Positions 1,915 through 58,500 of a stretch of 64,000 nt of DNA are shown piece after piece. The stretch spans positions 24,862,001 through 24,926,000 of the forward strand of contig OZ024745.1 in NCBI GenBank assembly GCA_964016885.1, written 5' to 3'. The number at the start of each line of letters is the position of its first letter. Position 1 is the stretch's first letter. The stretch is from Eledone cirrhosa. Taxonomy: Eukaryota. Both the position numbers and the translations under genes were made by a program. The notes under the pieces are model-generated. The model did not search any database. It saw only the letters and a list, made by a program, of their open reading frames with translations, and had not been told where the DNA came from.

Positions 1915-2040
1915 AAGTTTTATTTAAATTGTTGGGTTACAACGAGTAAATATTTATAACTGATATAAAAGCACTCAACAAGTATTTGGAGTATATTTAC
2001 GATATTAAATAAATGGAAACTATATTTATAAAACCATATT

Positions 2041-2106
2041 TATTTCATTATATATATTTCAGGGATATCATATTAAAAATATGGTATGCCTTCTTCAGAC
2101 AAAATA
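2041..2106 (-). ncRNA. Minimal type I hammerhead ribozyme (family A)
   Basis: Reverse complement of 2323-2388. Confidence 0.75.
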
Positions 2107-2322
2107 CAATATAAACAGTCTTATAAATAGATAGATTTGACATATTTCTCTCTCTATTTCTCTCTCTATTTAGTTGCATGCATTTCTTCTTTTTCTTCGC
2201 TTTTTTCTTTCTTTCTTTTTATAACTGTCCCTAACATTTTTCACTACCAAATCAACTTTTTAAATGGAAGTTGAAGTTGTAAGGTATGTCAAATCTATCT
2301 ATTTATAAGACTGTTTATATTG

Positions 2323-2388
2323 TATTTTGTCTGAAGAAGGCATACCATATTTTTAATATGATATCCCTGAAATATATATAATGAAATA
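2323..2388 (+). ncRNA. Minimal type I hammerhead ribozyme (family A)
   Basis: uauuuugu-CUGAAGA(2331)-stem II agg..ccu-GAAA(2369)-uauaua-UA-augaaaua; 8-bp stem I with two GU pairs. Confidence 0.78.
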
Positions 2389-2428
2389 AATATGGTTTTA
2401 TAAATATAGTTTCCATTTATTTAATATC

Positions 2429-2490
<62 letters not shown>

Positions 2491-15319: not shown

Positions 15320-18300
15320 GATAGCAACTAACAGTGCTGCGATCGAATGTGGCTTTTTAGCCCAGCCAATGATCCAAAATGTCTTGCACAGAGTCGGCAA
15401 CCAAAACATTTACTGGGAATAGTCGGCTGTGGTTGGAGTTCGTGTACTTTTGCATGTCGCTTGAGTCCTCCTGCTGATTTACATTCTCTACCACATGTTT
15501 GGCAAGCATGATGAGTAGCATCTCCAACAGCAGCCTGGTAGTCAACCACTGGTCTTACTTTATGACTGCGAAGATGACTTTCGAGTCCAGCTTTGCTTAG
15601 GCAGAGTCTCGCACAGACGCTGCATGTCAGAAACATAGGAGGACCCTCGCCGTCTGGAAGTGCAACAGCAATACCCTTCCTCACGTCCCGCTTTACTTTC
15701 TCGTGTGCGATTCGAGATGCCTCAAAGGCAACTTTTCCCTCATATACAGTCTTTCTCCATTTATTACGATCAGCAGCAACATTTTCCCATGTATCAGCAG
15801 AGATGTTAGCGTCTTTCAGAGAGGCCTTCAAGGAATCCTTATACCTCTTTTTTGGTTTATGTGGCGGTCGTTTTCCTTTAACCAACTCTCCATAGAAGAG
15901 TTGTTTTGGTATTCTAGAATCCTTCATCCTGGCAAGGTGACCACTCCAACGGAGTCGCTGCTTAAGCACAAGAGCTTCTATACTGTCACACATAGAGCTT
16001 TCCAAAATCTCGACATCACTGATGTGGTCCCTCCAGTGAACGCCATGTATCCGTCTGAGACACATCTGATGGAAACGCTCCAATTGCTTAAGGTGGCGTC
16101 GATATGTGACCCAGGTCTCGCAGGCATAAAGAAGACAAGAGAGTACACATGCCCTGTACACCTTTACCTTTGTCCTCCTGCATATGTCTCGCCGACCCCA
16201 GAGTCGCCTTTCTAGCTTTCCGAAAGCATCACTTGCTTTCCTAATCCTAAGTGAGATTTCACTGTCAAGGTTGCCGTATCGATTGACAGTGCTTCCCAGG
16301 TAGACAAACTGATCAACCACTCCAAGTCGTTTGCCATACACATAGATGTTTGGTTCAGTGTACTGCCTACCAGGTGCAGGTTGGTACATGACGACGGTTT
16401 TCTTGAGACTGACAGTCAAACCCAGGGCAGTGCAAGCGTCAGAAAATACATTCAAAATGTGCTGCATATCACTCTCTGTGTGCGCTACAAGATCGCAATC
16501 ATCTGCATACAAGAGGTCTCTTATGACTGATGTAAATACTTTTGTCTTCGCAGCAAAGCGCCTGATGTTAAATATGCTGCCTGAGGTTCGATATCGGATG
16601 TAAACACCATGCTCGCAATCCCTGAATGCAACACAGAAAACCATTGCAAAGTATATGGCAAACAGGGTCGGTGCTGGAATATCCCCCTGTTTCACTCCAT
16701 TTTTTACTGAGATAGGCTCCGACATGTTACCTCCGACATTAACCCAAGCCTTCATGTCGTCATGGAAAGACCTAACTAAAGCAAGGAACTTATCAGGGCA
16801 ACCAAGTTTCTGGAGAACCTTCCATAATGCATCTCTGTTGACAGTATCGAAAGCCTTTGTCAGATCGACAAAAACCTGATACAGATCCAAGCCCTGTTCA
16901 ATGCACTTCTCCTGGAGCTGTCTAGCTGAGAAGATCATATCAGTAGTGCCGCGTCCAACACGAAAACCAGATTGACTTTCAGGAAGGACACAATCTGCAA
17001 TGTGTGTCAGCAGACGGTCCAGAAGCACCCTACATAAAACTTTCCCCACGACAGAAAGCAATGATATACCTCTGTAGTTCCCACAATCATTCCTGTTACC
17101 CTTTCCCTTGTACAAGACCACCATTACTGCATCTCTCCAGTCCTCAGGCACGGATTCATTAGCCCATATCCTTCCAAACAGAGAGTGAAGATGTTGCAGG
17201 AGTCTCTCACCACCATATTGTAGGAGCTCAGCATGTATGCCATCCATACCTGGAGATCTTCCACTGTTCAGCTTCGAAATAGCCACTGCAACCTCCACAA
17301 GTGTCGGAGGCTCTGCGAGAGCTACTTTCACAGGACTTTCCGGAATGAGATTGAGGAAATCTTCACTGACGACAGACGGCTGATTCAAAAGATCATCAAA
17401 GTGCTCCCGCCACCTTCGTAGAATTCCCTGTGAGTCACGAAGAAGTTCTTTGCCATCCTTGCTGCGAATCGGTGTCACCAGAGAAGAAGACGGTCCATAA
17501 ACCTCACGCAAGAGACTGTACAACAGCTTTGTGTTATTGCAATCAGACGCAGTTTGTATCTCACCAGCCTTCTCACTCCACCACTGATCCTTCATCTGAG
17601 AAAGACTCCGCCTAACACGTGATTTTACATCCCTGAGCTCCTCATGCAACGTATTCCTCTCCTGTGGTCTTGCCGTCAAGTAGCGTGACAGAGCGCGCCT
17701 CTTATCAGCCAACAAGTCATCTATATGCACATCTTTCTCATTAAACCAGTCCTGATGTTTTCTCTGCACCAATCCCAGAACACGTCTGCCTACATCATAA
17801 ACCGACTTTTTAAGGGTCGGCCAATCCTCACCAAGATCTGCAGCCTGCATCTCTTCTTCCAATGTCCTCTTCACATTTTTATCCTTAAGACGAGCAGCAT
17901 TCAATCTTTTGGGCAGGGTAACACCAGGAGCCCGGATTTTACGTTTGGTGATTAGATTCACTTTTGCGCGTACCAGGCGGTGGTCCGTCCAGCACTCAGC
18001 TCCACGAAGAACACGAACACACCGCACATCCTGTCTGTCACGCATCCTGACTAGGACGTAGTCCAAAAGATGCCATTCCTTAGATGCAGGATGCATCCAT
18101 GTGGTCTTGAATTTGTTCTTTTGTTGGAACATGGTGTTGGTAACACACAGATCCAGCTCCTCACACATCTGCAGCAAGAGCATACCATTGCTGTTACACT
18201 TTCCCACCCCATGCCTTCCGATTACATTCCATGTGTTAAAATCCCTACCCACTCTAGCATTAAAGTCACCAAGCACGATGACTTTGTCTGCCTGAGGGAT

Positions 18301-18882
18301 ATTTCTTAAAACACCTTTCAAGGCATGGTAAAAGGACAGTTTTTCTTCATCGACAGAATTCATAGTTGGAGCATACACACTCACCAGGGTAGCATATCTT
18401 CCCTTGTCCAGCGGAACTCTCATGGACATAAGACGCTCACTAATCCCCACTGGGAATTCTTCCAATTTATTCACCAGTACAGTCTTAACAGCAAATCCTA
18501 CCCCAGCCTCTCTTCTGGTTCCTTCATCTCTTCCTTTCCAGAAGAATGTATATTCTCCACAAAATTCCGTAAGATGACCATCTCCAGCTAACCTCGTCTC
18601 AGACAAAGCCACGATGTCAAGATCGTAACGTCGAAGCTCCTTCGCAACAAGAGCGGTCCTTCGTTCAGGACGCTCCAAAGAATCCCTGTCAAGCAGCGTC
18701 CGTACGTTCCAGCAGCCAAGACTAAATGCCCTGTTTGGCTCTATTACAATGGCACGATGACGGGCGGGCCCAGGTTGTGATAACTTGGGGCCCCTGCCCT
18801 TATTGCCAATGATCTTTTTTGTTCCAGAACCCAAATTGGCAATTATCTCGTTTACATTGTTCTGGAACATCATTGAATTGGG

Positions 18883-18915
<33 letters not shown>

Positions 18916-18920
18916 TAATA

Positions 18921-18957
<37 letters not shown>

Positions 18958-19258
18958 ACTATTAATAATTATTAATGCACTCGTGCAATGCCTGTGCGTG
19001 ACGAATATTTTTAAAGTGAGGAAAGACTGTGCACTGAACCAATCCCACTCTCTGAGCGACAGTAGCTATAACCCGAAAAGAAGAAAAGATCAACATCATC
19101 GGTAACTACTGAGCCGCAGGTTTTATATCGGAGTTAACCCAGTTTCCTGAGATGCCTTCTCCTAGAAGAATACCCTGACATGGGCTAGGGGTTCTTCACT
19201 CCCAGTGGTTTAACTGCGCGATCGGGCATCCAGCCCGATTATTTCTATGTCCCCGCGC
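15076..19258 (-). mobile_element. Near full-length RTE-clade LINE
   Basis: Single APE+RT ORF; 3' hairpin ctcg-ataa-cgag followed by (CAT)/(ATGT)n tail; ~380-bp 5'UTR. Confidence 0.93.
15328..18873 (-). CDS. RTE ORF: APE endonuclease + reverse transcriptase + three C-terminal C2H2-like zinc fingers (1181 aa)
   Basis: APE motifs WNVRTL, LSETRL, YAPT, GDFNAR, LLDYV, TDH; RT motifs NYRGISLL, QSGFR, FVDLTKAFD, GVKQG, YADD, YLGS, RLRWSGH; no stops. Confidence 0.96.
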   Translation of the reverse strand: MMFQNNVNEIIANLGSGTKKIIGNKGRGPKLSQPGPARHRAIVIEPNRAFSLGCWNVRTLLDRDSLERPERRTALVAKELRRYDLDIVALSETRLAGDGHLTEFCGEYTFFWKGRDEGTRREAGVGFAVKTVLVNKLEEFPVGISERLMSMRVPLDKGRYATLVSVYAPTMNSVDEEKLSFYHALKGVLRNIPQADKVIVLGDFNARVGRDFNTWNVIGRHGVGKCNSNGMLLLQMCEELDLCVTNTMFQQKNKFKTTWMHPASKEWHLLDYVLVRMRDRQDVRCVRVLRGAECWTDHRLVRAKVNLITKRKIRAPGVTLPKRLNAARLKDKNVKRTLEEEMQAADLGEDWPTLKKSVYDVGRRVLGLVQRKHQDWFNEKDVHIDDLLADKRRALSRYLTARPQERNTLHEELRDVKSRVRRSLSQMKDQWWSEKAGEIQTASDCNNTKLLYSLLREVYGPSSSLVTPIRSKDGKELLRDSQGILRRWREHFDDLLNQPSVVSEDFLNLIPESPVKVALAEPPTLVEVAVAISKLNSGRSPGMDGIHAELLQYGGERLLQHLHSLFGRIWANESVPEDWRDAVMVVLYKGKGNRNDCGNYRGISLLSVVGKVLCRVLLDRLLTHIADCVLPESQSGFRVGRGTTDMIFSARQLQEKCIEQGLDLYQVFVDLTKAFDTVNRDALWKVLQKLGCPDKFLALVRSFHDDMKAWVNVGGNMSEPISVKNGVKQGDIPAPTLFAIYFAMVFCVAFRDCEHGVYIRYRTSGSIFNIRRFAAKTKVFTSVIRDLLYADDCDLVAHTESDMQHILNVFSDACTALGLTVSLKKTVVMYQPAPGRQYTEPNIYVYGKRLGVVDQFVYLGSTVNRYGNLDSEISLRIRKASDAFGKLERRLWGRRDICRRTKVKVYRACVLSCLLYACETWVTYRRHLKQLERFHQMCLRRIHGVHWRDHISDVEILESSMCDSIEALVLKQRLRWSGHLARMKDSRIPKQLFYGELVKGKRPPHKPKKRYKDSLKASLKDANISADTWENVAADRNKWRKTVYEGKVAFEASRIAHEKVKRDVRKGIAVALPDGEGPPMFLTCSVCARLCLSKAGLESHLRSHKVRPVVDYQAAVGDATHHACQTCGRECKSAGGLKRHAKVHELQPQPTIPSKCFGCRLCARHFGSLAGLKSHIRSQHC

Positions 19259-24726: not shown

Positions 24727-24790
24727 TATTTCATTATACATATTTCAAGGACATCAAGTTAATTATGGTGTGCTTTCATCAGATAAAATA
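24727..24790 (-). ncRNA. Minimal type I hammerhead ribozyme (family A copy 24690-24920)
   Basis: Reverse complement reads uauuuuau-CUGAUGA-aagcacacc..gauguccuu-GAAA-uaugua-UA-augaaaua. Confidence 0.75.
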
Positions 24791-25212: not shown

Positions 25213-25373
25213 GATATATATGTATGTATATATATATGTGTGTGTAGAAGTTATATTTATTTGTTGGGATTCCAACAAACTTAAATGTTTATAACTGATA
25301 TAGAGCACTCAACAGTACTGGAGTAAATATTCAATATATTAATAAATGGAAACTATATTTATAAAACCATAAT

Positions 25374-25438
25374 TATTTTATTATATATATTTCAAGGGCG
25401 ACCAAGTCAATCTTGGTGCGCTTTCATCAGATAAAATA
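25374..25438 (-). ncRNA. Minimal type I hammerhead ribozyme (family A)
   Basis: Reverse complement of 25576-25640. Confidence 0.8.
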
Positions 25439-25575
25439 CAAAATTTGTTTTATAAATAGTGACATAACCATGGAAAACAACCTTGACGGTTGAAAATTCG
25501 CTTGACTACCCAGCGAATTTTCAACCGTCAAGGTTGTTTTCCATGGTTATGTCACTATTTATAAAACAAATTTTG

Positions 25576-25640
25576 TATTTTATCTGATGAAAGCGCACCA
25601 AGATTGACTTGGTCGCCCTTGAAATATATATAATAAAATA
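25576..25640 (+). ncRNA. Minimal type I hammerhead ribozyme (family A)
   Basis: uauuuuau-CUGAUGA(25584)-aagcgc-accaag/cuuggu-cgcccuu-GAAA(25621)-uauaua-UA-auaaaaua. Confidence 0.82.
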
Positions 25641-25710
25641 ATTATGGTTTTATAAATATAGTTTCCATTTATTAATATATTGTATATTTATATATATATA
25701 TATATATATA

Positions 25711-26246
25711 AACAATTAAGTTAAAAATGTACATCCACATATGTATACTGAAATACTAGTATGCATATGAATACACACACGTGTACATATGTAGATGTAC
25801 CGAGTTTTTCACTGGACACTTTACTGTGAGTGTCCAGCTATTCTGTATGTAAACACACAGACAAACCGGTTTTTAGAGTCATACTGGTTTTCGAGGAAAC
25901 ACCTTTCCTCTATTCTCCAGAAAGCCAGACAAGGAATATTGGACTAGTTTCGATGTTGTTACATCTCATCAGCAATATTTACCTATCTTCCGGCCTTTCT
26001 AGAGAATCGTAAAAGCACATATCGTTATATGCTTTTTCTATGAAAATTAGTAGTGGGCAGACTAATTTGCATCGAGCGTGAGTACGTACCGGTTCAGCGG
26101 AGACGATAAAAACAAATAACGAAACGAAATTAAATTTCGTTTCGTTTGTAACTCACTTTTGTATGACTGACGCTTAAACAATTAAGTTAAAAATGTACAT
26201 CCACATATGTATACTGAAATACTAGTATGCATATGAATACACACAC

Positions 26247-26253
<7 letters not shown>
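25711..26253 (-). mobile_element. Retrozyme-like / non-autonomous PLE (family B), 466-bp monomer, ~1.16 units
   Basis: Sequence at 25711 recurs at 26177; one HHR per unit; (TA)n flanks; non-coding. Confidence 0.8.
25935..25979 (-). ncRNA. Minimal type I hammerhead ribozyme (family B), GUC cleavage triplet
   Basis: Reverse complement reads aauauug-CUGAUGA-gaugu aaca acauc-GAAA-cuag-UC-caauauu; perfect 7-bp stem I and 5-bp stem II. Confidence 0.88.
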
Positions 26254-26291
<38 letters not shown>

Positions 26292-28493: not shown

Positions 28494-28988
<495 letters not shown>

Positions 28989-29400
28989 TCTATTTATATA
29001 TATATATATATATATAAAATAGTATGTCCATAGAACCAAAAACATATGTATATATCTATGACTTTGTCTAGTTTATATGTATATACCCTTTAAATTATAT
29101 ATATATATATATACAAATATAAATATATTATACAAAGAGAAGTGTGTTACACAGTGAGATGTGTGTAAAGAACTATTACAAGTGAGTTTTACCGTTACTG
29201 TATATGTAATAATTCACTTGTAATATATTTATATTTGTATTTGAACTCAGAAGAAAATTCTCTATTCCTCTTTGAGCTAATATTATTATTATTACTGTGA
29301 ACTCCGGAATACTCTTAATTCCGATCCCCGTATATATATATATATATATATATGAAATATATGAAATATAAGAATCAAAGAACTGTTCAAAACATTATTG

Positions 29401-29447
29401 TGCTTACAGCTGTTTCCTCCAAACCGAGGTTTGGATTCTTCGGAGCA
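29401..29447 (-). ncRNA. Minimal hammerhead ribozyme variant in the inverted pseudo-LTR
   Basis: Reverse complement of 33062-33108. Confidence 0.7.
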
Positions 29448-29997
29448 ATTTATTAATGCATGGACAGTTATATGACCTCCCTTTCAGCCGAGAGACATAC
29501 CAATACAAACATTGATACATATTCAAACATTGTGGGTCAACATTCATTACAGAATTTAGAGTGGCAGTACACACTTCGAGAATTACATTTATATTAATAG
29601 GTACAATCAAAAATCAAAGATATAGGTTAAAGTACAACATGAAGATAAGTGGTTATATAGTGCAAATGTTATATGTGTGGCACGCATGTGCGTCTTGTTT
29701 ATATAGTGTGGCAGAGAGATATGTGTGGTAGAGGCACTTAGGTAGGTAAATAAGAGTGTTAGGTTGGTAGATCTGGTGGCAAAGTCTTTATATGATTGAT
29801 ATAGTCTGTGTGTGGAGAAATATTATAAGCATTAAAGATAGTGCAAGCATTAAAAGTGTTATAAGTATTGGAGATGCACAGCGCAGGGATGTCAAGTAAT
29901 TCATGTACTTCGGTATTTTCATGGTCAAGGGAGTGTATATTTCGATTATATGCCTTTCACATAATCCACGACAATCCTATTAAATAAGGCACTTATC

Positions 29998-31623
29998 ATG
30001 GCCATGACCAATAGCGACCTGACTAGAGCCCAGGTTGATGTCATCCTTGCGGCCCGTAAAACCATAATCACCTTCGAGGACCAACTATGGACACGCAAGG
30101 ATACGCACAACAACTTCGACATAACCATGGGATCTAGTGACTCGGCGCAGGTCACTGATTTGGTCGGCCTATACCTCCTCAATGAAATCCATAAAGACCT
30201 CCCTTACCTCAACGGTGGTTTGTACCGCGATGATGCACTTCTACTCATAGAATATAAAAAATTTAATATAGAAAGAACTAGAAAACAACTGCATAAGACA
30301 TTCAAAAACTTTAACCTTAGTATCACCATGGACAAAAACACTAAAAATGTTAACTTCCTAGACGCCACACTATACCTAGACTCAAAAATATATACACCCT
30401 TCCATAAGCCTAATGAGAAACTTATTTACGTAGATACCAAGTCTAATCACCCTAGATCAATATTAAACTCTATCTCTAAGGGGGTGTCCAATAGAATCTC
30501 TAGTCTGTCCTATGACGCAAACATATTTAGCAAAAACTCACAATATTACAATCAAGCATTAGCTAGCTCCGGCCATAATATAGAAATTGAGTTCCTACCT
30601 AAGAAAACACATAGCTACAACATCATCTCGCACAACATGTCCATGAGGAAATCTAATAATAGGAATAGCAACCACAAGTACACCAAAGCGGAGGGTGCCA
30701 CCGGAAGTAACCATTACCATGGAAACTACTGTGAGGCCTTAGGAGGAAGCAACACACCAAACACTAAAAGCAAAAATAGAAGAAGAAATAATACATTTTT
30801 CAACCCTCCTTTCAACCTAAATGTCTCCACCAACATACCTAGGGCTTTCTTCTCACTACTAGATAAAAACTTCCCTCTAGGACACAAGTACCACAACCTC
30901 TTAAACAAAAACACAATTAAAATCTCATACTCCACGACGCCTAACTTAGCATACCACATAGCTAGCAGCAATAATAGTAAAATTAGTTCTTACTTCCAAC
31001 AAACAAAATCGCAACGGGATGCAAACCCTCTAAATACCACTGTAGCAAGCAACAATAGCAACGGCAGTAACAATAGAAATAACACTAGTATAAGTAATAA
31101 CACCAGGGTTGTCAACCTGAACACCCAAAATCCTATATCCACCACACAGACTTCCGCATTGCATTATAACCAGCGGACTAACGCACAGAATAATTGTAAC
31201 TGTAGAACTAATAGAACCTGCCCTTTAGATAAAAAATGCCTAACCAAGGATGTCATATACTCATGCACAGTCACGACTAATAACTCTTCAGAAACCTATG
31301 TAGGCTCCACTTCTAACTGCTTCAAAATTAGATATAACTCGCACATCCACTCGTTCAAAAAGCACAGCCTAGCCAACTCCACCTCACTTTCTAGCTACAT
31401 ACACTTTCTAAAATCTAAAAATAAACCATACACACTCAAATGGGAAGTGATAGGCAGCGCGACCTCGTACAAACCACCTAATAAATTCTGTAACCTCTGT
31501 ATACTAGAGACACACAATATTATCTTCTCCAACCGTAACCTACTTAACAAAAAATCTGAGGTGTTTGCAACTTGCCAGCACCGCCTCAGACATTCCTTCC
31601 AAAACTTTAAGCCCTATATATAG
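29998..31623 (+). CDS. PLE reverse transcriptase (C-terminal part) + GIY-YIG endonuclease
   Basis: FDITMGS, LYRDD, NFLD, SNHP, CNC-x5-C-x5-C linker, VIY..YVG..R..H, CNLCILE, LLNKKSE; the frame is open a few codons upstream (LLNKAL) to the truncation point. Confidence 0.93.
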   Translation: MAMTNSDLTRAQVDVILAARKTIITFEDQLWTRKDTHNNFDITMGSSDSAQVTDLVGLYLLNEIHKDLPYLNGGLYRDDALLLIEYKKFNIERTRKQLHKTFKNFNLSITMDKNTKNVNFLDATLYLDSKIYTPFHKPNEKLIYVDTKSNHPRSILNSISKGVSNRISSLSYDANIFSKNSQYYNQALASSGHNIEIEFLPKKTHSYNIISHNMSMRKSNNRNSNHKYTKAEGATGSNHYHGNYCEALGGSNTPNTKSKNRRRNNTFFNPPFNLNVSTNIPRAFFSLLDKNFPLGHKYHNLLNKNTIKISYSTTPNLAYHIASSNNSKISSYFQQTKSQRDANPLNTTVASNNSNGSNNRNNTSISNNTRVVNLNTQNPISTTQTSALHYNQRTNAQNNCNCRTNRTCPLDKKCLTKDVIYSCTVTTNNSSETYVGSTSNCFKIRYNSHIHSFKKHSLANSTSLSSYIHFLKSKNKPYTLKWEVIGSATSYKPPNKFCNLCILETHNIIFSNRNLLNKKSEVFATCQHRLRHSFQNFKPYI

Positions 31624-33061
31624 CAATGTCGGACTGGAACCTAACACCACATCTAGCATCAAACACCAGAGACACACCCTATACTACATACCCAACACTA
31701 GCTGATCCATTATAACACAAACAACGACATCCCTCTGGAACCCTTCGCAGGGAAAATACCCATTTATACCTCTACGGCAGGTGTGACAACATCCACCCAC
31801 CTGGACGGCACTACACCGCTCTAAGGGTAATTTGAGCATGAATTGATCGGTTGGATGGTGTTGGGCAGAGGAAACACCTTCCTTAGACAGATGTAAAATG
31901 ATTTAATCGAGTAGCGCTGTTGACCAGTAGGACCAGGCTGCTGAGCGCAGTGAGTGAATGCAATGCAACTGCCGTGCGGGTTGTACGTATATGGATGATC
32001 TGACGGTCAGAGAGGGGTCGCGAGGACTGCGGATTGACCTTTGGCCTGCCTGGGGATGATTATCTTTCGACATCCAATGTAGCAAGCGATGACCCAGATC
32101 TTACCAGAGATCATTGGGTCCTGAAGCAATCCTGCAATCACCGCGCCTGGTCATATGAGCAGACTACAACCACAAAGATCATTAATTTAGAATCCTCGCT
32201 CATCATCTATAATTTCCATTTGTAGCACCTTAAGATGGGTTAATCCACCTTAATAATAATATGATCACCTTCAGCATAATTTAGTTAAACTACTCTATAG
32301 TTAGTACACTTTATGCTTTAAAAGTCTCTCTTGGAAGGTGCACCTCACCATAGAATTTAGGGTCTATATTGGGACACATTTTAATGGCTAGATATAGAAA
32401 CCCCAGAGTTACCTCCCCGCATGCATTAACTCCCCTTAGCCACACACACACTTCCGGTATTCAATGGCGTCTCTCGAAACGTAACAACCTCCTGTATCGA
32501 ACTAAAGAACACCAGACTACGATCTCTAACTGGATTGTCGTGGATTATGTGAAAGGCATATAATCGAAATATACACTCCCTTGACCATGAAAATACCGAA
32601 GTACATGAATTACTTGACATCCCTGCGCTGTGCATCTCCAATACTTATAACACTTTTAATGCTTGCACTATCTTTAATGCTTATAATATTTCTCCACACA
32701 CAGACTATATCAATCATATAAAGACTTTGCCACCAGATCTACCAACCTAACACTCTTATTTGCCTACCTAAGTGCCTCTACCACACATATCTCTCTGCCA
32801 CACTATATAAACAAGACGCACATGCGTGCCACACATATAACATTTGCACTATATAACCACTTATCTTCATGTTGTACTTTAACCTATATCTTTGATTTTT
32901 GATTGTACCTATTAATATAAATGTAATTCTCGAAGTGTGTACTGCCACTCTAAATTCTGTAATGAATGTTGACCCACAATGTTTGAATATGTATCAATGT
33001 TTGTATTGGTATGTCTCTCGGCTGAAAGGGAGGTCATATAACTGTCCATGCATTAATAAAT

Positions 33062-33108
33062 TGCTCCGAAGAATCCAAACCTCGGTTTGGAGGAAACAGC
33101 TGTAAGCA
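33062..33108 (+). ncRNA. Minimal hammerhead ribozyme variant (CCGAAGA core) in the PLE pseudo-LTR
   Basis: ugcu-CCGAAGA-a uccaaacc uc gguuugga g-GAAA-cagcug-UA-agca. Confidence 0.72.
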
Positions 33109-33309
33109 CAATAATGTTTTGAACAGTTCTTTGATTCTTATATTTCATATAACTGCTCTGTAAATCATCTGATGTTTTTACATTGAGCTACTTAACTTAC
33201 TGGTAATAAGGTAGTAATACATTACTGCCTACCACTATTTAGGGTGTGTGTAAAATACTTACAACTGCTTAAGGTTTTGTGTTTACATAACCATAAATAG
33301 TATAACTAA

Positions 33310-33364
<55 letters not shown>

Positions 33365-45609: not shown

Positions 45610-46640
45610 TCTTAATCATCATCATCGATTCTTTATCTATATCTCTTTATTACTTCCCTCTCTCTGTCTTTCTCTCTCTCTCTCACACATACACACACAC
45701 ACTCGCTCTCTCTCTCTCTCACACACACATACACACGCAGATACACACACACTCTGTCACACTCTCTCTCACACACACACACATACACACACACATACAC
45801 ACACACATACACACACACGCTCTCTCTCTCTCTCTCACACACACACGCATATACACACACACACTCTGTCACACTCTCACACACACACACACACACACAT
45901 ACACACACACACACGCTCTCTCTCTCTCACACACACACACTCGCTCTCTCTCTCTCTCACACACACACACACTCTCTCTCACTCTCTCTCTCTCTCTTCC
46001 TCCCTCTCTCTCTCCTTTTCTCTTTCCATGGGAGAAATCGGCAGTGTGAGTGAAATTTGGTAGACCTAGACTACCCGGAAACCCGTCCAATGGACTCTAT
46101 CTGGAATTCAAGGAGCCACCTTTGTTACACACTATCACACTGAAACTCCCTGAAAATTACATTAAGGATACACGTGTCTGTGGAATTCTGAGACACTTTC
46201 AGAAGAATGTTGTTCTGGTGATTGACGAACTGAAACACATATCGACGAAACTGACGGAGGTCCATGAATGTATGTATTCATGCATACATATGTCCGTATG
46301 TATATATGTATTTATATGTGTATGCATATATATATAAAAACAAATAACGAAACGAAATTAAATTTCGTTTCGTTTGTAACTCACTTTTGTATGACTGACG
46401 CTTAAACAATTAAGTTAAAAATTAAGTTAAAAATGTACATCCACATATGTATACTGAAATACTAGTATGCATATGAATACACACACGTATACATATGTAG
46501 ATGTACCGAGTTTTTCACTGATCACTTTACTGTGAGTGTCCAGCTATTCTGTATGTAAACACACAGACAAACCGGTTTTTAGAGTCATACTGGTTTTTGA
46601 GGAAACACCTTTCCTCTATTCTCCAGAAAGCCAGACAAGG

Positions 46641-46685
46641 AATATTGAACTAGTTTCGATGTTGTTACATCTCATCAGCAATATT
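46641..46685 (-). ncRNA. Minimal type I hammerhead ribozyme (family B), GUU triplet
   Basis: Same as 25935-25979 with UC changed to UU. Confidence 0.83.
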
Positions 46686-47089
46686 TACCTATCTTCCGGT
46701 CTCTCTAGAGAATCGTAAAAGCACATATCGTTATATGCTTTTTCTATGAAAATTAGTAGTGGGCAGACTAATTTGCATAGAGCGTGAGTACGTACCGGTT
46801 CAACGGAGACGATAAAAACAAATAACGAAACGAAATTAAATTTCGTTTCGTTTGTAACTCACTTTTGTATGACTGACGCTTAAACAATTAAGTTAAAAAT
46901 GTACATCCACATATGTATACTGAAATACTAGTATGCATATGAATACACACACGTATACATATGTAGATGTACCGAGTTTTTCACTGGTCACGCTCTATGC
47001 AAATTAGTCTGCCCACTACTAATTTTCATAGAAAAAGCATATAACGATATGTGCTTTTACGATTCTCTAGAGAGACCGGAAGATAGGTA

Positions 47090-47134
47090 AATATTGCTGA
47101 TGAGATGTAACAACATCGAAACTAGTTCAATATT
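47090..47134 (+). ncRNA. Minimal type I hammerhead ribozyme (family B), GUU triplet
   Basis: aatattg-CTGATGA(47097)-gatgtaacaacatc-GAAA-ctag-TT-caatatt. Confidence 0.83.
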
Positions 47135-47352
47135 CCTTGTCTGGCTTTCTGGAGAATAGAGGAAAGGTGTTTCCTCAAAAACCAGTATGACTCTAAAAAC
47201 CGGTTTGTCTGTGTGTTTACATACAGAATAGCTGGACACTCACAGTAAAGTGACCAGTGAAAAACTCGGTACATCTACATATGTATACGTGTGTGTATTC
47301 ATATGCATACTAGTATTTCAGTATACATATGTGGATGTACATTTTTAACTTA

Positions 47353-47387
<35 letters not shown>

Positions 47388-47390
<3 letters not shown>

Positions 47391-47584
47391 AAAAAGTATG
47401 ACCCCGACGGCAGAGCTCAAGCTGTTTCGACGGCTATTTCTGGACTATTTCTAGTCCAGAAATAGCCGTCGAAACGGCTTGAGCTCTGCCGTCGGGGTCA
47501 TACTTTTTCCTATTTCCCACTCTACTACCCTAAGTATTGAGTACTCGGGTGCGTTATGGTCCATCTGGTTCCTTACCACAATTC
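47388..47584 (+). mobile_element. Family C PLE-end fragment with fold-back, cut by an RTE derivative
   Basis: Palindrome ~47387-47512 followed by the family C 3' sequence. Confidence 0.72.
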
Positions 47585-47590
47585 TCTCCC

Positions 47591-48018
47591 GGCCATCCAA
47601 AATCACCGGGAGAGATGACCCCTTAGCCTTTGTCAAGGCAGAACTCTAGGAGAAGGAAAACTCTGATATAACACCTGCAACCCTGATGGTATACAATGAT
47701 GTTGACTAGTTCTTCTTTTTGGTAAATATCATCTTGGTTAAGAGAATGGGACTGGCTTTGTGCAGTGCCTTTACTCACTATAAAAGCTTCACGGCACAGG
47801 CATTGCTTTATATCTGGAGATCTCTCTGCACTTGTCGTCACATGGTACCATGGGCCCAGCACTATGTGTCAATAATTGTCACAAGTGTAGTGTTTGTACC
47901 AGAGTTTTCAAGTCGCTGGCTGGACTAAAAAGTCACACTCGTTCAGCGCATCGGTAGGGGTTCTCCTATATGGATATAAAGTAGTGGCCATACTCGAAAA
48001 CGAGTTGGCAGCCACCAT
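47591..48018 (+). mobile_element. Non-autonomous RTE-derived element, 5'-truncated
   Basis: Reverse complement of part of 20525-21080; (ATGT)n tail follows. Confidence 0.85.
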
Positions 48019-50122: not shown

Positions 50123-50211
<89 letters not shown>

Positions 50212-50212
<1 letters not shown>

Positions 50213-50829
50213 TATGTATACGTACATACATATATGCGTACAGACGTACAGTAGTATGTATATATATATACATACATGCACACATATATATATGTACGTA
50301 TGGGTTTACCGAACATTTATTATAATGTTCGGTTTGTTTGTAAACAAACAGCCCGAATTACGCCGTACAGTGCTCGGCAATCCTCGTCGCCTTTTTGTTC
50401 AATACTGACACAGGAACGATGTACTAGTTTCAAGCTTATTAGCTATCGTCAGCATCGTATACCTTTCTGTCAGATGATTGAACGTTTGGAAGTATATACT
50501 TTCCTTATGCATATTAACGGCTGAGGAGCCTAATTTGCATATCGAGTGAGTTAGTTCCTGTGTCAGTATTGAACAAAAGGGCGACGATGGTTGCCGAGCA
50601 CTGTACGGCTTAATTCGGGCTGTTTGTTTACAAACAAACCGAACATGATAATAAATGTTCGGTAAACCCATACGTACATATATATATGTGTGTGCATGTA
50701 TGTATATATATACATACTACCGTACGTCTGTACACATACATGTATGTACGTATACATACATACATACTTACATTTAAGTAACTGCCGTACTAAGAGTGAG
50801 AAATGAAATTTCGTTTCATTCTTTTCCAT

Positions 50830-50830
<1 letters not shown>
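50212..50830. mobile_element. Diverged sister of family B (B2) with a fold-back
   Basis: ~50215-50417 is inverted at ~50554-50757; same motif order as family B; HHR in the central part. Confidence 0.75.
50416..50458 (-). ncRNA. Minimal type I hammerhead ribozyme (family B2), GUA triplet
   Basis: Reverse complement reads acgaug-CUGACGA-uagcu aaua agcuu-GAAA-cuag-UA-caucgu. Confidence 0.85.
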
Positions 50831-52380
<1,550 letters not shown>

Positions 52381-52510: not shown

Positions 52511-55500
52511 GTATCGAGAGACACCCACAGCCATTACAGTATTGAGAGACAACTACAGCCATTACAATATTGAGAGACAACTACAGCCATTACAGTATTG
52601 AGAGACAACTACAGCCATTACAATACTGAGAGACAACTACAGCCATTACAGTATTGAGAGACAACTACAGCCATTACAATATTGAGAGACAACTACAGCC
52701 ATTACAGTATTGAGAGACAACTACAGCCATTACAATACTGAGAGACAACTACAGCCATTACAGTATTGAGAGACAACTACAGCCATTACAGTATTGAGAG
52801 ACACCCACAGCCATTACAATATAGAGAGACAACTACAGCCATTACAGTATTGAGAGACAACTACAGCCATTACAGTATTGAGAGACACCCACAGCCATTA
52901 CAATATAGAGAGACAACTACAGCCATTACAATATTGAGAGACAACTACAGCCATTACAGTATTGAGAGACAACTACAGCCATTACAGTATTGAGAGACAA
53001 CTACAGCCATTACAGTATTGAGAGACAACTACAGCCATTACAGTATTGAGAGACAACTACAGCCATTACAGTATTGAGAGACAACTACAGCCATTACAGT
53101 ATTGAGAGACAACTACAGCCATTACAGTATTGAGAGACAACTACAGCCATTACAGTATTGAGAGACACCCACAGCCATTACAATATTGAGAGACAACTAC
53201 AGCCATTACAATATTGAGAGACAACTACAGCCATTACAGTATTGAGAGACAACTACAGCCATTACAGTATTGAGAGACAACTACAGCCATTACAATACTG
53301 AGAGACAACTACAGCCATTACAGTATTGAGAGACAACTACAGCCATTACAATATAGAGAGACAACTACAGCTATTACAATACTGAGAGACAACTACAGCC
53401 ATTACAGTATTGAGAGACAACTACAGCCATTACAATATAGAGAGACAACTACAGCCATTACAATACTGAGAGACAACTACAGCCATTACAATATTGAGAG
53501 ACAACTACAGCCATTACAATATAGAGAGACAACTACAGCCATTACAGTATTGAGAGACAACTACAGCCATTACAGTATTGAGAGACACCCACAGCCATTA
53601 CAATATAGAGAGACAACTACAGCCATTACAATATTGAGAGACAACTACAGCCATTACAGTATTGAGAGACAACTACAGCCATTACAGTATTGAGAGACAA
53701 CTACAGCCATTACAGTATTGAGAGACAACTACAGCCATTACAATACTGAGAGACAACTACAGCCATTACAGTATTGAGAGACAACTACAGCCATTACAGT
53801 ATTGAGAGACAACTACAGCCATTACAATACTGAGAGACAACTACAGCCATTACAGTATTGAGAGACAACTACAGCCATTACAGTATTGAGAGACAACTAC
53901 AGCCATTACAGTATTGAGAGACAACTACAGCCATTACAATACTGAGAGACAACTACAGCCATTACAGTATTGAGAGACAACTACAGCCAGTACAGTATTG
54001 AGAGACAACTACAGCTATTACAGTATTGAGAGACAACTACAGCCATTACAATATTGAGAGACAACTACAGCCATTACAGTATTGAGAGACAACTACAGCC
54101 ATTACAGTATTGAGAGACAACTACAGCCATTACAGTATTGAGAGACAACTACAGCCATTACAATACTGAGAGACAACTACAGCCATTACAGTATTGAGAG
54201 ACAACTACAGCCATTACAGTATTGAGAGACAACTACAGCCATTACAGTATTGAGAGACAACTACAGCTATTACAGTATTGAGAGACAACTACAGCCATTA
54301 CAGTATTGAGAGACACCCACAGCCATTACAATATAGAGAGACAACTACAGCCATTACAATATTGAGAGACAACTACAGCCATTACAGTATTGAGAGACAA
54401 CTACAGCCATTACAGTATTGAGAGACAACTACAGCCATTACAGTATTGAGAGACAACTACAGCCATTACCGTATTGAGAGACACCCACAGCCATTACAGT
54501 ATTGAGAGACAACTACAGCCATTACAGTATTGAGAGACAACTACAGCCATTACCGTATTGAGAGACACCCACAGCCACTACAGTATTGAGAGACAACTAC
54601 AGCCATTACAGTATTGAGAGACAACTACAGCCATTACAGTATTGAGAGACAACTACAGCCATTACAGTATTGAGAGACAACTACAGCCATTACAGTATTG
54701 AGAGACAACTACAGCCATTACAGTATTGAGAGACAACTACAGCCATTACAGTATTGAGAGACAACTACAGCTATTACAGTATTGAGAGACAACTACAGCC
54801 ATTACAGTATTGAGAGACAACTACAGCCATTACAGTATTGAGAGACAACTACAGCCATTACAGTATTGAGAGACAACTACAGCCATTACAATATTGAGAG
54901 ACAACTACAGCCATTACAGTATTGAGAGACAACTACAGCCATTACAGTATTGAGAGACAACTACAGCCATTACAATATTGAGAGACAACTACAGCCATTA
55001 CAATATTGAGAGACAACTACAGCCATTACAATATTGAGAGACAACTACAGCCATTACAATATTGAGAGACAACTACAGCCATTACAATATTGAGAGACAA
55101 CTACAGCCATTACAATACTGAGAGACAACTACAGCCATTACAGTATTGAGAGACAACTACAGCCATTACAATACTGAGAGACAACTACAGCCATTACAGT
55201 ATTGAGAGACAACTACAGCCATTACCGTATTGAGAGACACACACAGCCATTACAGTATTGAGAGACAACTACAGCCATTACAGTATTGAGAGACAACTAC
55301 AGCCATTACCGTATTGAGAGACAACTACAGCCATTACAGTATTGAGAGACAACTACAGCCATTACAGTATTGAGAGACAACTACAGCCATTACAGTATTG
55401 AGAGACAACTACAGCCATTACAGTATTGAGAGACAACTACAGCTATTACAGTATTGAGAGACAACTACAGCCATTACAGTATAGAGGGACAACTACAGCC

Positions 55501-58500
55501 ATTACAATATTGAGAGACAACTACAGCCATTACAGTATTGAGAGACAACTACAGCCATTACAATATTGAGAGACAACTACAGCCAGTACAGTATTGAGAG
55601 ACAACTACAGCCATTACAGTATTGAGAGACAACTACAGCCATTACAGTATTGAGAGACACCCACAGCCATTACAGTATTGAGACACAACTACAGCCATTA
55701 CAGTATTGAGAGACAACTACAGCCATTACAGTATTGAGAGACAACTACAGCCATTACAATATAGAGAGACAACTACAGCCATTACAGTATTGAGAGACAA
55801 CTACAGCCATTACAGTATTGAGAGACAACTACAGCCATTACAATATTGAGAGACAACTACAGCCATTACAGTATTGAGAGACAACTACAGCCATTACAAT
55901 ATAGAGAGACAACTACAGCCATTACAGTATTGAGAGACAACTACAGCCATTACAGTATTGAGAGACAACTACAGCCATTACAATATTGAGAGACAACTAC
56001 AGCCATTACAGTATTGAGAGACAACTACAGCCATTACAGTATTGAGAGACACCCACAGCCATTACAGTATTGAGAGACAACTACAGCCATTACAGTATTG
56101 AGAGACAACTACAGCCATTACAGTATTGAGAGACACCCACAGCCATTACAGTATTGAGAGACAACTACAGCCATTACAGTATTGAGAGACAACTACAGCC
56201 ATTACAGTATTGAGAGACAACTACAGCCATTACAATATAGAGAGACAACTACAGCCATTACAGTATTGAGAGACAACTACAGCCATTACAATATAGAGAG
56301 ACAACTACAGCCATTACCGTATTGAGAGACACCCGCAGCCATTACAGTATTGAGAGACAACTACAGCCATTACAGTATGGAGAGACAACTACAGCCATTA
56401 CAGTATTGAGAGACAACTACAGCCATTACAGTATTGAGAGACAACTACAGCCATTACAGTTTTGAGAGACAACTACAGCCATTACCGTATTGAGAGACAC
56501 CCACAGCCATTACAGTATTGAGAGACAACTACAGCCATTACAGTATTGAGAGACAACTACAGCCATTACAGTATTGAGAGACAACTACAGCCATTACAGT
56601 ATTGAGAGACACCCACAGCCATTACAGTATTGAGAGACAACTACAGCCATTACAGTATTGAGAGACAACTACAGCCATTACAGTATTGAGAGACAACTAC
56701 AGCCATTACAGTATTGAGAGACAACTACAGCCATTACAATATTGAGAGACAACTACAGCCATTACAATATTGAGAGACAACTACAGCCATTACAATATTG
56801 AGAGACAACTACAGCCATTACAGTATTGAGAGACAACTACAGCCATTACAATACTGAGAGACAACTACAGCCATTACAATATTGAGAGACAACTACAGCC
56901 ATTACAATATTCAGAGACAACTACAGCCATTACAGTATTGAGAGACAACTACAGCCATTACAGTATTGAGAGACAACTACAGCCATTACAGTATTGAGAG
57001 ACAACTACAGCTATTACAGTATTGAGAGACAACTACAGCTATTACAGTATTGAGAGACAACTACAGCTATTACAGTATTGAGAGACAACTACAGCCATTA
57101 CAGTATTGAGAGACAACTACAGCCATTACAATACTGAGAGACAACTACAGCCATTACAGTATTGAGAGACAACTACAGCCATTACAGTATTGAGAGACAA
57201 CTACAGCCACTACAGTATTGAGAGACAACTACAGCCATTACAGTATTGAGAGACAACTACAGCCATTACAGTATTGAGAGACAACTACAGCCATTACAAT
57301 ACTGAGAGACAACTACAGCCATTACAATATAGAGAGACAACTACAGCCATTACAGAATTGAGAGACAACTACAGCCATTACAGTATTGAGAGACAACTAC
57401 AGCCATTACAGTATTGAGAGACAACTACAGCCATTACAATACTGAGAGACAACTACAGCCATTACAGTATTGAGAGACAACTACAGCCATTACAGTATTG
57501 AGAGACACCCACAGCCATTACAGTATTGAGAGACAACTACATCCATTACAGTATTGAGAGACACCCACAGCCATTACAGTATTGAGAGACAACTACAGCC
57601 ATTACAGTATTGAGAGACAACTACAGCCATTTCAGTATTGAGAGACAACTACAGCCATTACAATATTGAGAGACACCCACAGCCATTACAATACTGAGAG
57701 ACAACTACAGCCATTACAATATAGAGAGACAACTACATCCATTACAGTATTGAGAGACAACTACAGCCATTACAATATAGAGAGACAACTACAGCCATTA
57801 CAGTATTGAGAGACAACTACAGCCATTACAGTATTGAGAGACAACTACAGCTATTACAGTATTGAGAGACAACTACAGCCATTACAGTATTGAGAGACAA
57901 CTACAGCCATTACAGTATTGAGAGACAACTACAGCCATTACAGTATTGAGAGACAACTACAGCCATTACAGTATTGAGAGACAACTACAGCCATTACAGT
58001 ATTGAGAGACAACTACAGCCATTACAGTATTGAGAGACAACTACAGCCATTCCAGTATTGAGAGACACCCACAGCCATTACAGTATTGAGAGACAACTAC
58101 AGCCATTACAGTATTGAGAGACAACTACAGCCATTCCAGTATTGAGAGACACCCACAGCCATTACAGTATTGAGAGACAACTACAGCCATTACAGTATTG
58201 AGAGACAACTACAGCCATTACAGTATTGAGAGACAACTACAGCCATTACAGTATTGAGAGACAACTACAGCCATTCCAGTATTGAGAGACACCCACAGCC
58301 ATTACAGTATTGAGAGACAACTACAGCCATTCCAGTATTGAGAGACACCCACAGCCATTACAGTATTGAGAGACAACTACAGCCATTACAGTATTGAGAG
58401 ACAACTACAGCCATTACAGTATTGAGAGACAACTACAGCCATTACAGTATTGAGAGACAACTACAGCCATTCCAGTATTGAGAGACACCCACAGCCATTA

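What the first reader, a model, noticed from the sequence alone, without database searches (positions are those of the whole stretch)
25711..26253. Family B: 466-nt hairpin-rich monomer with one perfect hammerhead, a candidate retrozyme / circular RNA element
Seen: a non-coding unit repeated head-to-tail with a 466-bp period here and at 46336. The two insertions begin and end at different phases. Each unit has one textbook core (aauauug CUGAUGA gaugu-aaca-acauc GAAA cuag UC caauauu) and many local hairpins (aacgaaacgaaatt/aatttcgtttcgtt, ctggacact/agtgtccag, gcacatat/atatgc). Known: metazoan non-LTR retrozymes are tandem monomers of a few hundred nt with type I HHRs that yield circRNAs and are proposed to use PLE enzymes. 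Inference: cleavage at successive HHRs releases a 466-nt RNA that circularises and is reverse-transcribed by rolling around the circle. Caveat: the very short stem III is PLE-like, so a non-autonomous PLE pseudo-LTR is the alternative.
Basis: partly seen in the sequence, partly recalled or inferred. Interest (0 to 1): 0.85.

Follow-up and report, generated by a model that had tools for sequence, protein, structure and literature searches.

The report
Young retrozyme with Penelope-type paired ends
This is a non-coding 466-base repeat with a hammerhead ribozyme motif, found in thousands of copies in this animal genome, whose copies end at two fixed sites in the manner of Penelope-like retrotransposons, so it is likely a known kind of element (a retrozyme) that borrows Penelope enzymes and could serve to test how they work.

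Summary
In detail: 466-bp period, no frame over 60 aa, strongly folded (z -8.2), type I hammerhead with compensatory base changes. The family is young and large: 4,040 exact hammerheads, 1,753 exact copies of one end junction, arrays up to about 30 units.

5' ends are scattered, but 3' ends sit at two sites, A (about 230 nt after the cut) and B (about 302), and run into (TA)n. In the set not chosen by ends, 57 of 58 ends are A or B. Genome-wide, one copy ends at the ribozyme cut. The locus at 46334 also has an inverted second arm. Of 76 two-arm insertions, 68 pair A with B, none A-A or B-B.

This is the Penelope-like (PLE) signature of a 'tail at one end only', here about 70 nt. In 118 loci the unit was never the terminal repeat of an RT gene. 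Verdict: a non-LTR retrozyme likely mobilised in trans by a PLE, a new member of a known kind. Circular RNA, self-cleavage and the partner PLE are untested or unresolved.

The parts
25709..26256 (-). Locus A: single-arm insertion, 1.18 units; 5' end at unit position 152, 3' end at site A (233); (TA)n on both sides. Position 1 = first base after the ribozyme cut.
25935..25979 (-). Type I hammerhead: stem I 7 bp, CUGAUGA, stem II 5 bp with AACA loop, GAAA, stem III 2 bp inside palindromic ACUAGU; predicted cut after GUC between 25942 and 25941
26065..26072 (-). ATGCAAAT octamer inside a 12-nt block shared with families C/D; candidate internal promoter element (inferred)
26106..26174 (-). About 70-nt 'tail' between sites A and B (unit 234-302), holding the 13-bp hairpin 26118-26146; internal in this copy
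46334..46991 (-). Locus B left arm, 1.4 units; 3' end at site B (302) running into TA; short duplication at site A (about 46402-46434)
46641..46685 (-). Hammerhead of the left arm (GUU triplet)
46988..47354 (+). Locus B inverted right arm, 0.8 unit; 3' end at site A (227) running into (TA)n; shares six variants with the left arm
47090..47134 (+). Hammerhead of the right arm (GUU triplet)
50205..50835 (.). Family C, a colinear distant relative; also an inverted two-arm insertion with a tail of about 60 nt on one arm only
29358..33312 (+). Neighbouring 5'-truncated PLE (ORF 29965-31623) with the same layout and a 161-nt tail on one arm; not homologous to the unit; one of several candidate enzyme donors

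Best explanation
This is a non-coding, hammerhead-bearing tandem element (non-LTR retrozyme) that is likely copied into (TA)n tracts by the enzymes of a Penelope-like element acting in trans. SHOWN: dispersed young copies; 3' ends at two sites about 70 nt apart that bracket a hairpin; 5' truncation anywhere; head-to-head two-arm insertions with one A end and one B end; copying runs through the ribozyme site. INFERRED: (1) multi-unit arrays elsewhere are transcribed, perhaps from an internal octamer-containing promoter; (2) hammerheads cut as dimers through the ACUAGU palindrome, and monomers or small multimers are ligated into circles (about 50% that circles are the main template); (3) a PLE RT-endonuclease nicks both strands of an AT-rich target and primes cDNA internally, one strand at site A and the other at site B, probably on the same RNA; (4) the two cDNAs stop at random and are joined by microhomology or filler; (5) the longest arrays also grow by local block duplication.
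For: ENDS. 57 of 58 3' ends at A (29) or B (28) in 35 loci chosen by unit identity, not by ends; 187 of 190 A/B ends run into TA. Genome-wide, 1,753 exact B+TATA junctions against 1 junction at the ribozyme cut; reversed controls 0.

PAIRING. 68 of 76 two-arm insertions are A+B, 0 A+A, 0 B+B, 5 B+other, 3 ran off the fetched stretch; 21 of 21 in the unselected set (0.5^21 = 4.8e-7). 17 of 47 single-arm copies carry a micro-arm, each of the opposite type. Position lists alone on C1 gave 19 A+B pairs and 1 apparent B+B pair, which proved to be two separate insertions.

LITERATURE. Head-to-head 5'-truncated arms, a tail at one end only and (TA)n bias are described PLE traits (PMC8557442, PMC3846280). 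A purified PLE cuts and extends both strands and starts at two internal RNA sites that define the tail (PMC11167929). Real PLEs in this genome show two ends 63 and 161 nt apart.

RIBOZYME. 6 of 14 pairs change on both sides, 91.4% of cells paired against 26-47% for slid controls; a stem II swap GAUGU/ACAUC to GUUGU/ACAAC occurs within family B.

ONE TEMPLATE FOR BOTH ARMS. Locus-private variants are shared by both arms (L049, L047, L039); end-counted register fits L161 and one site of L226. Target-site duplications of 48, 10, 8 and 4 bp at four loci.
Against: No RNA-level evidence for transcription, cleavage or circles. The partner PLE is not identified, and the unit has no homology to PLE termini in 74 PLE loci beyond nested copies and low-complexity matches. 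The tail (about 70 nt) is longer than the 30-40 nt in print, though within the range of this genome's PLEs. The one-RNA step rests on few sites: L039, L052 and L054 also fit gene conversion between arms, one site in L226 and unit 4 of L054 do not fit, and the repeated variants of L044 are in one arm only. The excess of 5' ends at site A (11 of 133 against 3.7; nominal p 0.001) is not significant after a scan correction (p 0.06). The covariation set of 15 hand-picked sequences comes from two related groups, so the changes are a few events, not 36.
Confidence: 0.75

Rival explanations
1. Same PLE-driven, two-site priming, but the template is an uncleaved linear read-through transcript of an array; circles, if made, are a by-product. 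This differs from the best explanation only in step 2.
For: For the anole PLE, ribozyme mutants did not affect insertion and unprocessed RNA appeared to be the main substrate (PMC11167929). Unit-specific variants in the same register in both arms (L039, L161, L226) need a multimer, not a monomer circle. Long arrays show block duplications in one arm (L141-142, L045-046, L044), so long templates can be renewed without rolling.
Against: The hammerhead fold is kept by compensatory changes. Some arrays are perfectly uniform with their own haplotype (L155: 7 units, L163: 6 units, no differences). Alternating variants in L054 and L183 fit a dimer circle. No pile-up of 5' ends marks a transcript start (chi-square p 0.22).
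Confidence: 0.4
2. The unit is simply the pseudo-LTR of an ORF-bearing PLE, and the copies are its truncated ends.
For: PLE-type ends; palindromic stem III as in PLE ribozymes (PMC4209133); in Xenopus 24 of 57 retrozyme families matched known TEs, nearly all PLE termini (10.64898/2026.07.22.740005).
Against: Units follow each other directly up to about 30 times. In 118 family-B loci and 20 family-D loci no arm continues upstream into an RT-EN ORF as its terminal repeat; three loci have older PLE pieces at or near the 5' junction (L043, L146, L156). Families B, C and D are colinear and non-coding along the unit. No family-B sequence in 30 loci of the youngest PLE or 29 loci of one Neptune-like family.
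Confidence: 0.07
3. One reading: a monomer circle is primed at arbitrary phases and copied round by rolling.
For: 5' ends are uniform and arms cross the cut site; it is the model proposed for retrozymes in PMC7229834.
Against: 3' ends are at two fixed sites and pair A with B; multimer templates are needed at a few loci.
Confidence: 0.05
4. A DNA-level satellite or fold-back repeat spread by recombination or rolling-circle DNA replication, with the second arm made as a snap-back copy of the first.
For: Block duplications in long arrays; filler sequence at 24 of 68 centres; self-priming was proposed for PLE inversions (PMC3846280).
Against: Strand-polar structure with fixed 3' and random 5' ends, and target-site duplications. 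A snap-back copy of the tail-bearing arm could not be longer than that arm, yet the A arm is longer in 29 of 68.
Confidence: 0.04

Closest known systems
Metazoan non-LTR retrozymes (coral, mussel, axolotl/newt satellite 2; PMC7229834; bioRxiv 10.64898/2026.07.22.740005)
   Same: Non-coding tandem monomer with one type I hammerhead, GC under 50%, highly self-paired, dispersed monomers to long arrays, coexists with PLEs.
   Different: 466 nt, just above the 150-450 bp range in PMC7229834 but inside the 51-972 bp range of the 2026 preprint. Fixed A/B ends, inverted arms and a tail are not mentioned in what I read of either paper ('inverted' and 'tail' occur 0 times in the main text of PMC7229834). 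Circles are shown there, not here.
Endonuclease-bearing Penelope-like elements (PMC8557442, PMC3846280; anole Poseidon in vitro, PMC11167929)
   Same: Head-to-head inverted 5'-truncated arm, tail on one end only, two internal start sites at a stem-loop, AT-rich or (TA)n targets, ribozyme with palindromic stem III.
   Different: No ORF; tail about 70 nt rather than 30-40; start sites 230 and 302 nt after the cut; 1-3 nt of T/TA/TAT match to the target at the ends, whereas the anole element started without homology.
Non-autonomous Chlamys PLEs such as MRC1 (PMC8557442)
   Same: Non-autonomous, multicopy head-to-tail insertions, microsatellite bias.
   Different: Those generally share 3' sequence with an autonomous family, and most Chlamys lack canonical hammerheads; no shared sequence with a partner was found here.

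Membership tests
Metazoan non-LTR retrozyme | Short non-coding monomer in head-to-tail repeats | tested here: met
   466-bp period, arrays to about 30 units, longest frame 60 aa
Metazoan non-LTR retrozyme | Type I hammerhead in each unit | tested here: met
   Core intact, covariation; 4,040 exact copies; Rfam score below gathering
Metazoan non-LTR retrozyme | Dispersed multicopy, GC under 50%, highly self-paired | tested here: met
Metazoan non-LTR retrozyme | At least two consecutive hammerhead units (criterion for an active copy in the 2026 preprint) | tested here: met
   Met by the family (80 of 199 arms cross two or more cut sites); not met by any of the three arms in this window
Metazoan non-LTR retrozyme | Target-site duplications longer than 4 bp when present | tested here: inconclusive
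   48 bp (L173, the one adjacent hit of 12 nt or more in 119 insertions) and 10, 8, 4 bp read by eye at the three other loci printed; the rest mostly hidden in (TA)n
Metazoan non-LTR retrozyme | Expressed as linear and circular monomer RNA | not testable with these tools
   No run on record as RNA was listed; only contigs could be laid
Metazoan non-LTR retrozyme | Self-cleavage activity | not testable with these tools
   Needs in vitro transcription; 8 of 9 Xenopus dimers did not cleave in the 2026 preprint
Metazoan non-LTR retrozyme | No LTR, primer-binding site or polypurine tract | not tested
   No LTR layout seen in mapped copies, but PBS and PPT were not searched
PLE-mobilised element | Head-to-head inverted 5'-truncated arm with a tail at one end only | tested here: met
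   68 A+B, 0 same-type, of 76 two-arm insertions
PLE-mobilised element | Microsatellite or AT-rich target bias | tested here: met
   TA run on both sides 85, one side 32, none 2 of 119 insertions; 83 of the 118 loci were chosen by an end+TA pattern
PLE-mobilised element | Shared 3' sequence with an identified autonomous partner | tested here: inconclusive
   None in 74 + 29 PLE loci sampled; the genome has over 10,000 GIY-YIG candidates, 150 scored
Autonomous PLE (unit as its pseudo-LTR) | Unit flanks an RT + GIY-YIG ORF | tested here: not met
   0 of 118 family-B and 0 of 20 family-D loci

The most novel reading that the evidence does not exclude
One dimeric Penelope-type enzyme grips a single circular retrozyme RNA at the tail hairpin and primes both nicked target strands on it, one subunit at site A and one at site B, each rolling round by strand displacement. 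This would explain why the PLE tail sits at one end only and would make this family a direct genomic record of circular RNAs being retrotransposed.
Probability: 0.3. Interest if true: 0.7.

Novelty: new member of a known kind. Interest (0 to 1): 0.45.

Why it matters
Retrozyme mobilisation by PLEs has been argued from co-occurrence and pseudo-LTR similarity. Here the insertion junctions themselves carry the PLE tail signature. The family has many near-identical copies, a 466-nt template and two mapped start sites. That makes two open questions testable: why the PLE tail is at one end only (68 A+B against 0 same-type says the two primings are coupled), and whether circular RNA or uncleaved multimer is the template. 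The element class itself is not new.

Tried and rejected
RNA evidence: no RNA holder listed, so expression stays open. Four coded runs of unknown kind were laid, all as contigs. X4 (organism B) and X6 (organism C) each hold one 495-496-nt contig, one unit plus about 30 nt, 95-99% alike; X4 shows the 'goes back 466' joint. A tandem array and a circle give the same contig, so this is no evidence for a circle.

Partner by sequence: no shared terminus found. Partner by chimera: L156 and L206 join a family-B arm to the 3' part of one Neptune-like family. That PLE piece is 97-98% identical to its nearest relatives while the B units beside it are 99.1-99.6% alike, so nested insertion is at least as likely; rejected as proof. 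Partner by age: the 832-aa PLE family is youngest (98.6-100% nt) but has a 161-nt tail and no canonical hammerhead by my scan; a Neptune-like family has a 63-nt tail and 97.5-98.9% identity. Unresolved. Clade names rest on recalled motifs plus Pfam RT/GIY-YIG hits.

Classical twin priming on one linear RNA was rejected because B arms are mostly long and do not stop at A. Long arrays as proof of rolling were rejected because of block duplications. Earlier scan notes: three look-ups showed nothing. The paper on the newt satellite-2 promoter was not held.

Full report
OBSERVATION. Self-comparison gives a 466-bp period at both loci. I number the unit on the hammerhead strand with position 1 just after the predicted cut (window 25941). 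Locus A is 25709-26256, 1.18 units, between (TA)n runs. Locus B is a minus-strand arm 46334-46991 joined 5'-to-5' to a plus-strand arm 46988-47354; the finding omits this inversion. Three hammerheads are present (Rfam HH9, E 2.5e-6 to 1.4e-5, below gathering), GUC at locus A and GUU at locus B. The unit folds at z -8.21, has no frame over 60 aa and is 36.7% GC. Stem III is two pairs inside the palindrome ACUAGU (self-duplex -4.8 kcal/mol), the arrangement said to work as a dimer (PMC4209133, passages). In 15 hand-picked hammerheads from families B, C and D, 6 of 14 pairs change on both sides and 91.4% of cells pair, against 26-47% for slid controls. These come from two related groups, so they are few independent events.

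THE FAMILY. The genome is 3.0 Gb; the host was not determined (the named relatives of the neighbouring PLE protein are from molluscs, at 33-39% identity). The unit search scored 40 of 383 candidates and listed copies at 99-100% on many contigs. Exact patterns give 4,040 hammerheads and 1,753 junctions of site B with TATA, reversed controls 0. Subfamilies range from 87 to 100% identity. Colinear relatives exist: family C in this window (50205-50835) and family D (most of 1,404 pattern hits; about 60-65% identity).

MAPPING THE ENDS. I mapped 118 loci: 35 chosen by unit identity (two in the window, 33), 73 taken from the B-end list and 10 from the A-end list on C1; L164 and L165 are near-duplicates, counted twice and once. 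In the unselected set 57 of 58 3' ends fall at A (226-234; 29) or B (295-303; 28). Only 1 copy genome-wide ends at the cut followed by TA. 5' ends are uniform: 4 of 196 lie within 5 nt of the cut, 4.2 expected; 163 of 199 arms cross at least one cut site and 80 cross two or more. So reverse transcription starts internally and the template is continuous across the ribozyme site (inference). Of 76 two-arm insertions, 68 are A+B, none A+A or B+B, 5 are B+other and 3 ran off the stretch; in the unselected set all 21 are A+B. Of 47 single-arm copies, 12 B arms have a micro A arm and 5 A arms a micro B arm. Pairing from position lists alone gave 19 A+B within 15 kb; the single B+B and inward pairs were separate insertions. 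The A arm is the longer in 29 of 68. Centres show overlap in 36, blunt joins in 8 and filler in 24 of 68.

WHAT THIS MATCHES. PLE insertions often have an inverted 5'-truncated copy and a 30-40-bp tail at one end only (PMC8557442, 12 passages; PMC3846280, 11 passages). The purified anole PLE cuts and extends both strands, is predicted to be a dimer, starts at two internal sites that bound the tail, and does not need ribozyme cleavage (PMC11167929, parts 1-2 of 4: abstract, main text, start of methods). PLEs in this genome show two ends 161 nt apart (the 832-aa family) and 63 nt apart (a Neptune-like family). Family B has the same pattern with about 70 nt holding a 13-bp hairpin, and no ORF. 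PLEs were proposed as the enzyme source for retrozymes in PMC7229834 (parts 2-3 of 6, Discussion, passages) and supported by co-occurrence and pseudo-LTR similarity in bioRxiv 10.64898/2026.07.22.740005 (parts 1-3 of 5; supplements not seen, and they may hold end data). Eight searches showed no listing that reports fixed paired ends for a retrozyme; most subscription journals are not in the library.

IS IT A PSEUDO-LTR? Seven RT proteins were searched against 118 family-B and 20 family-D loci. PLE fragments are common nearby, as all target (TA)n, but no arm continues upstream into an ORF as its terminal repeat. The unit has no homology to 74 PLE loci beyond nested copies and low-complexity matches, nor to 29 further loci. 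Two possible chimeras with one Neptune-like family (L156, L206) look older on the PLE side. The partner is unresolved.

CIRCLE OR MULTIMER? For circles: conserved ribozyme, perfectly uniform arrays with their own haplotype (L155, L163), alternating variants (L054, L183), and a weak excess of 5' ends at site A after whole laps (11 of 133, scan p 0.06). For multimers: unit-specific variants in the same end-counted register in both arms (L039, L161, L226) and block duplications in one arm of long arrays. I put circles as main template at about 50% and linear multimers at about 40%. Both arms share locus-private variants (L049, L047, L039), which fits one RNA but also two transcripts of one source or gene conversion.

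PROMOTER. The block TATGCAAATTAG, containing the octamer ATGCAAAT, is shared by B and C/D. The octamer was present upstream of 106 of 144 distinct B and 13 of 25 C/D hammerheads, most misses being truncated copies or variants. Newt satellite 2 is cited as having an snRNA-type promoter (PMC2220036, passage); that such promoters use an octamer is my recall. This is a lead only.

VERDICT. A real, young non-LTR retrozyme with PLE-type ends: a new member of a known kind. Its value is the clean A+B rule, which makes the PLE mechanism and the circle question testable. Interest 0.45.

Noticed in passing
window 29358-33312: 5'-truncated copy of a very young PLE family: 832-aa open ORF in many copies, 150 scored hits 99-100% identical at protein level, 37,776 candidates; 161-nt tail; no canonical hammerhead by my scan.
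   Followed up: partly
window 1992-2437, 24743-24782, 25324-25690: A second hammerhead family (stem III ATATATAT) as inverted pairs; the copy directly beside locus A has a tail on one arm only.
   Followed up: partly
window 28567-28936 and 47389-47600: A short hairpin-rich element that sits in (TA)n and is found within 250 nt of 13 of 118 family-B loci; not characterised.
   Followed up: no
window 15328-19065 (-): Open 1,245-aa LINE ORF with endonuclease, RT and C2H2 zinc fingers.
   Followed up: no
window 52511-64000: 28-bp satellite, 410 copies, 95% matches, running off the window.
   Followed up: no
L134:4795-4835, L156:3945-3980: Two Neptune-like PLE families carry hammerhead-shaped motifs with an altered core (UUGAAAA instead of CUGANGA) and palindromic ACCGGU.
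   Followed up: no
L138 and L179 flanks: Left and right flanks of the insertion are inverted copies of each other (129 bp in L179); inverted target duplication or an assembly effect.
   Followed up: no
window 46402-46434 and L049:5516: Short duplication exactly at site A inside a B-ended arm, seen at 2 loci among those scanned; could be a jump between the two start sites.
   Followed up: partly
runs X4 and X6: Runs labelled as two other organisms each hold a single one-unit contig 95-99% alike; kind of run unknown, so relative, contamination or circle cannot be told apart.
   Followed up: partly
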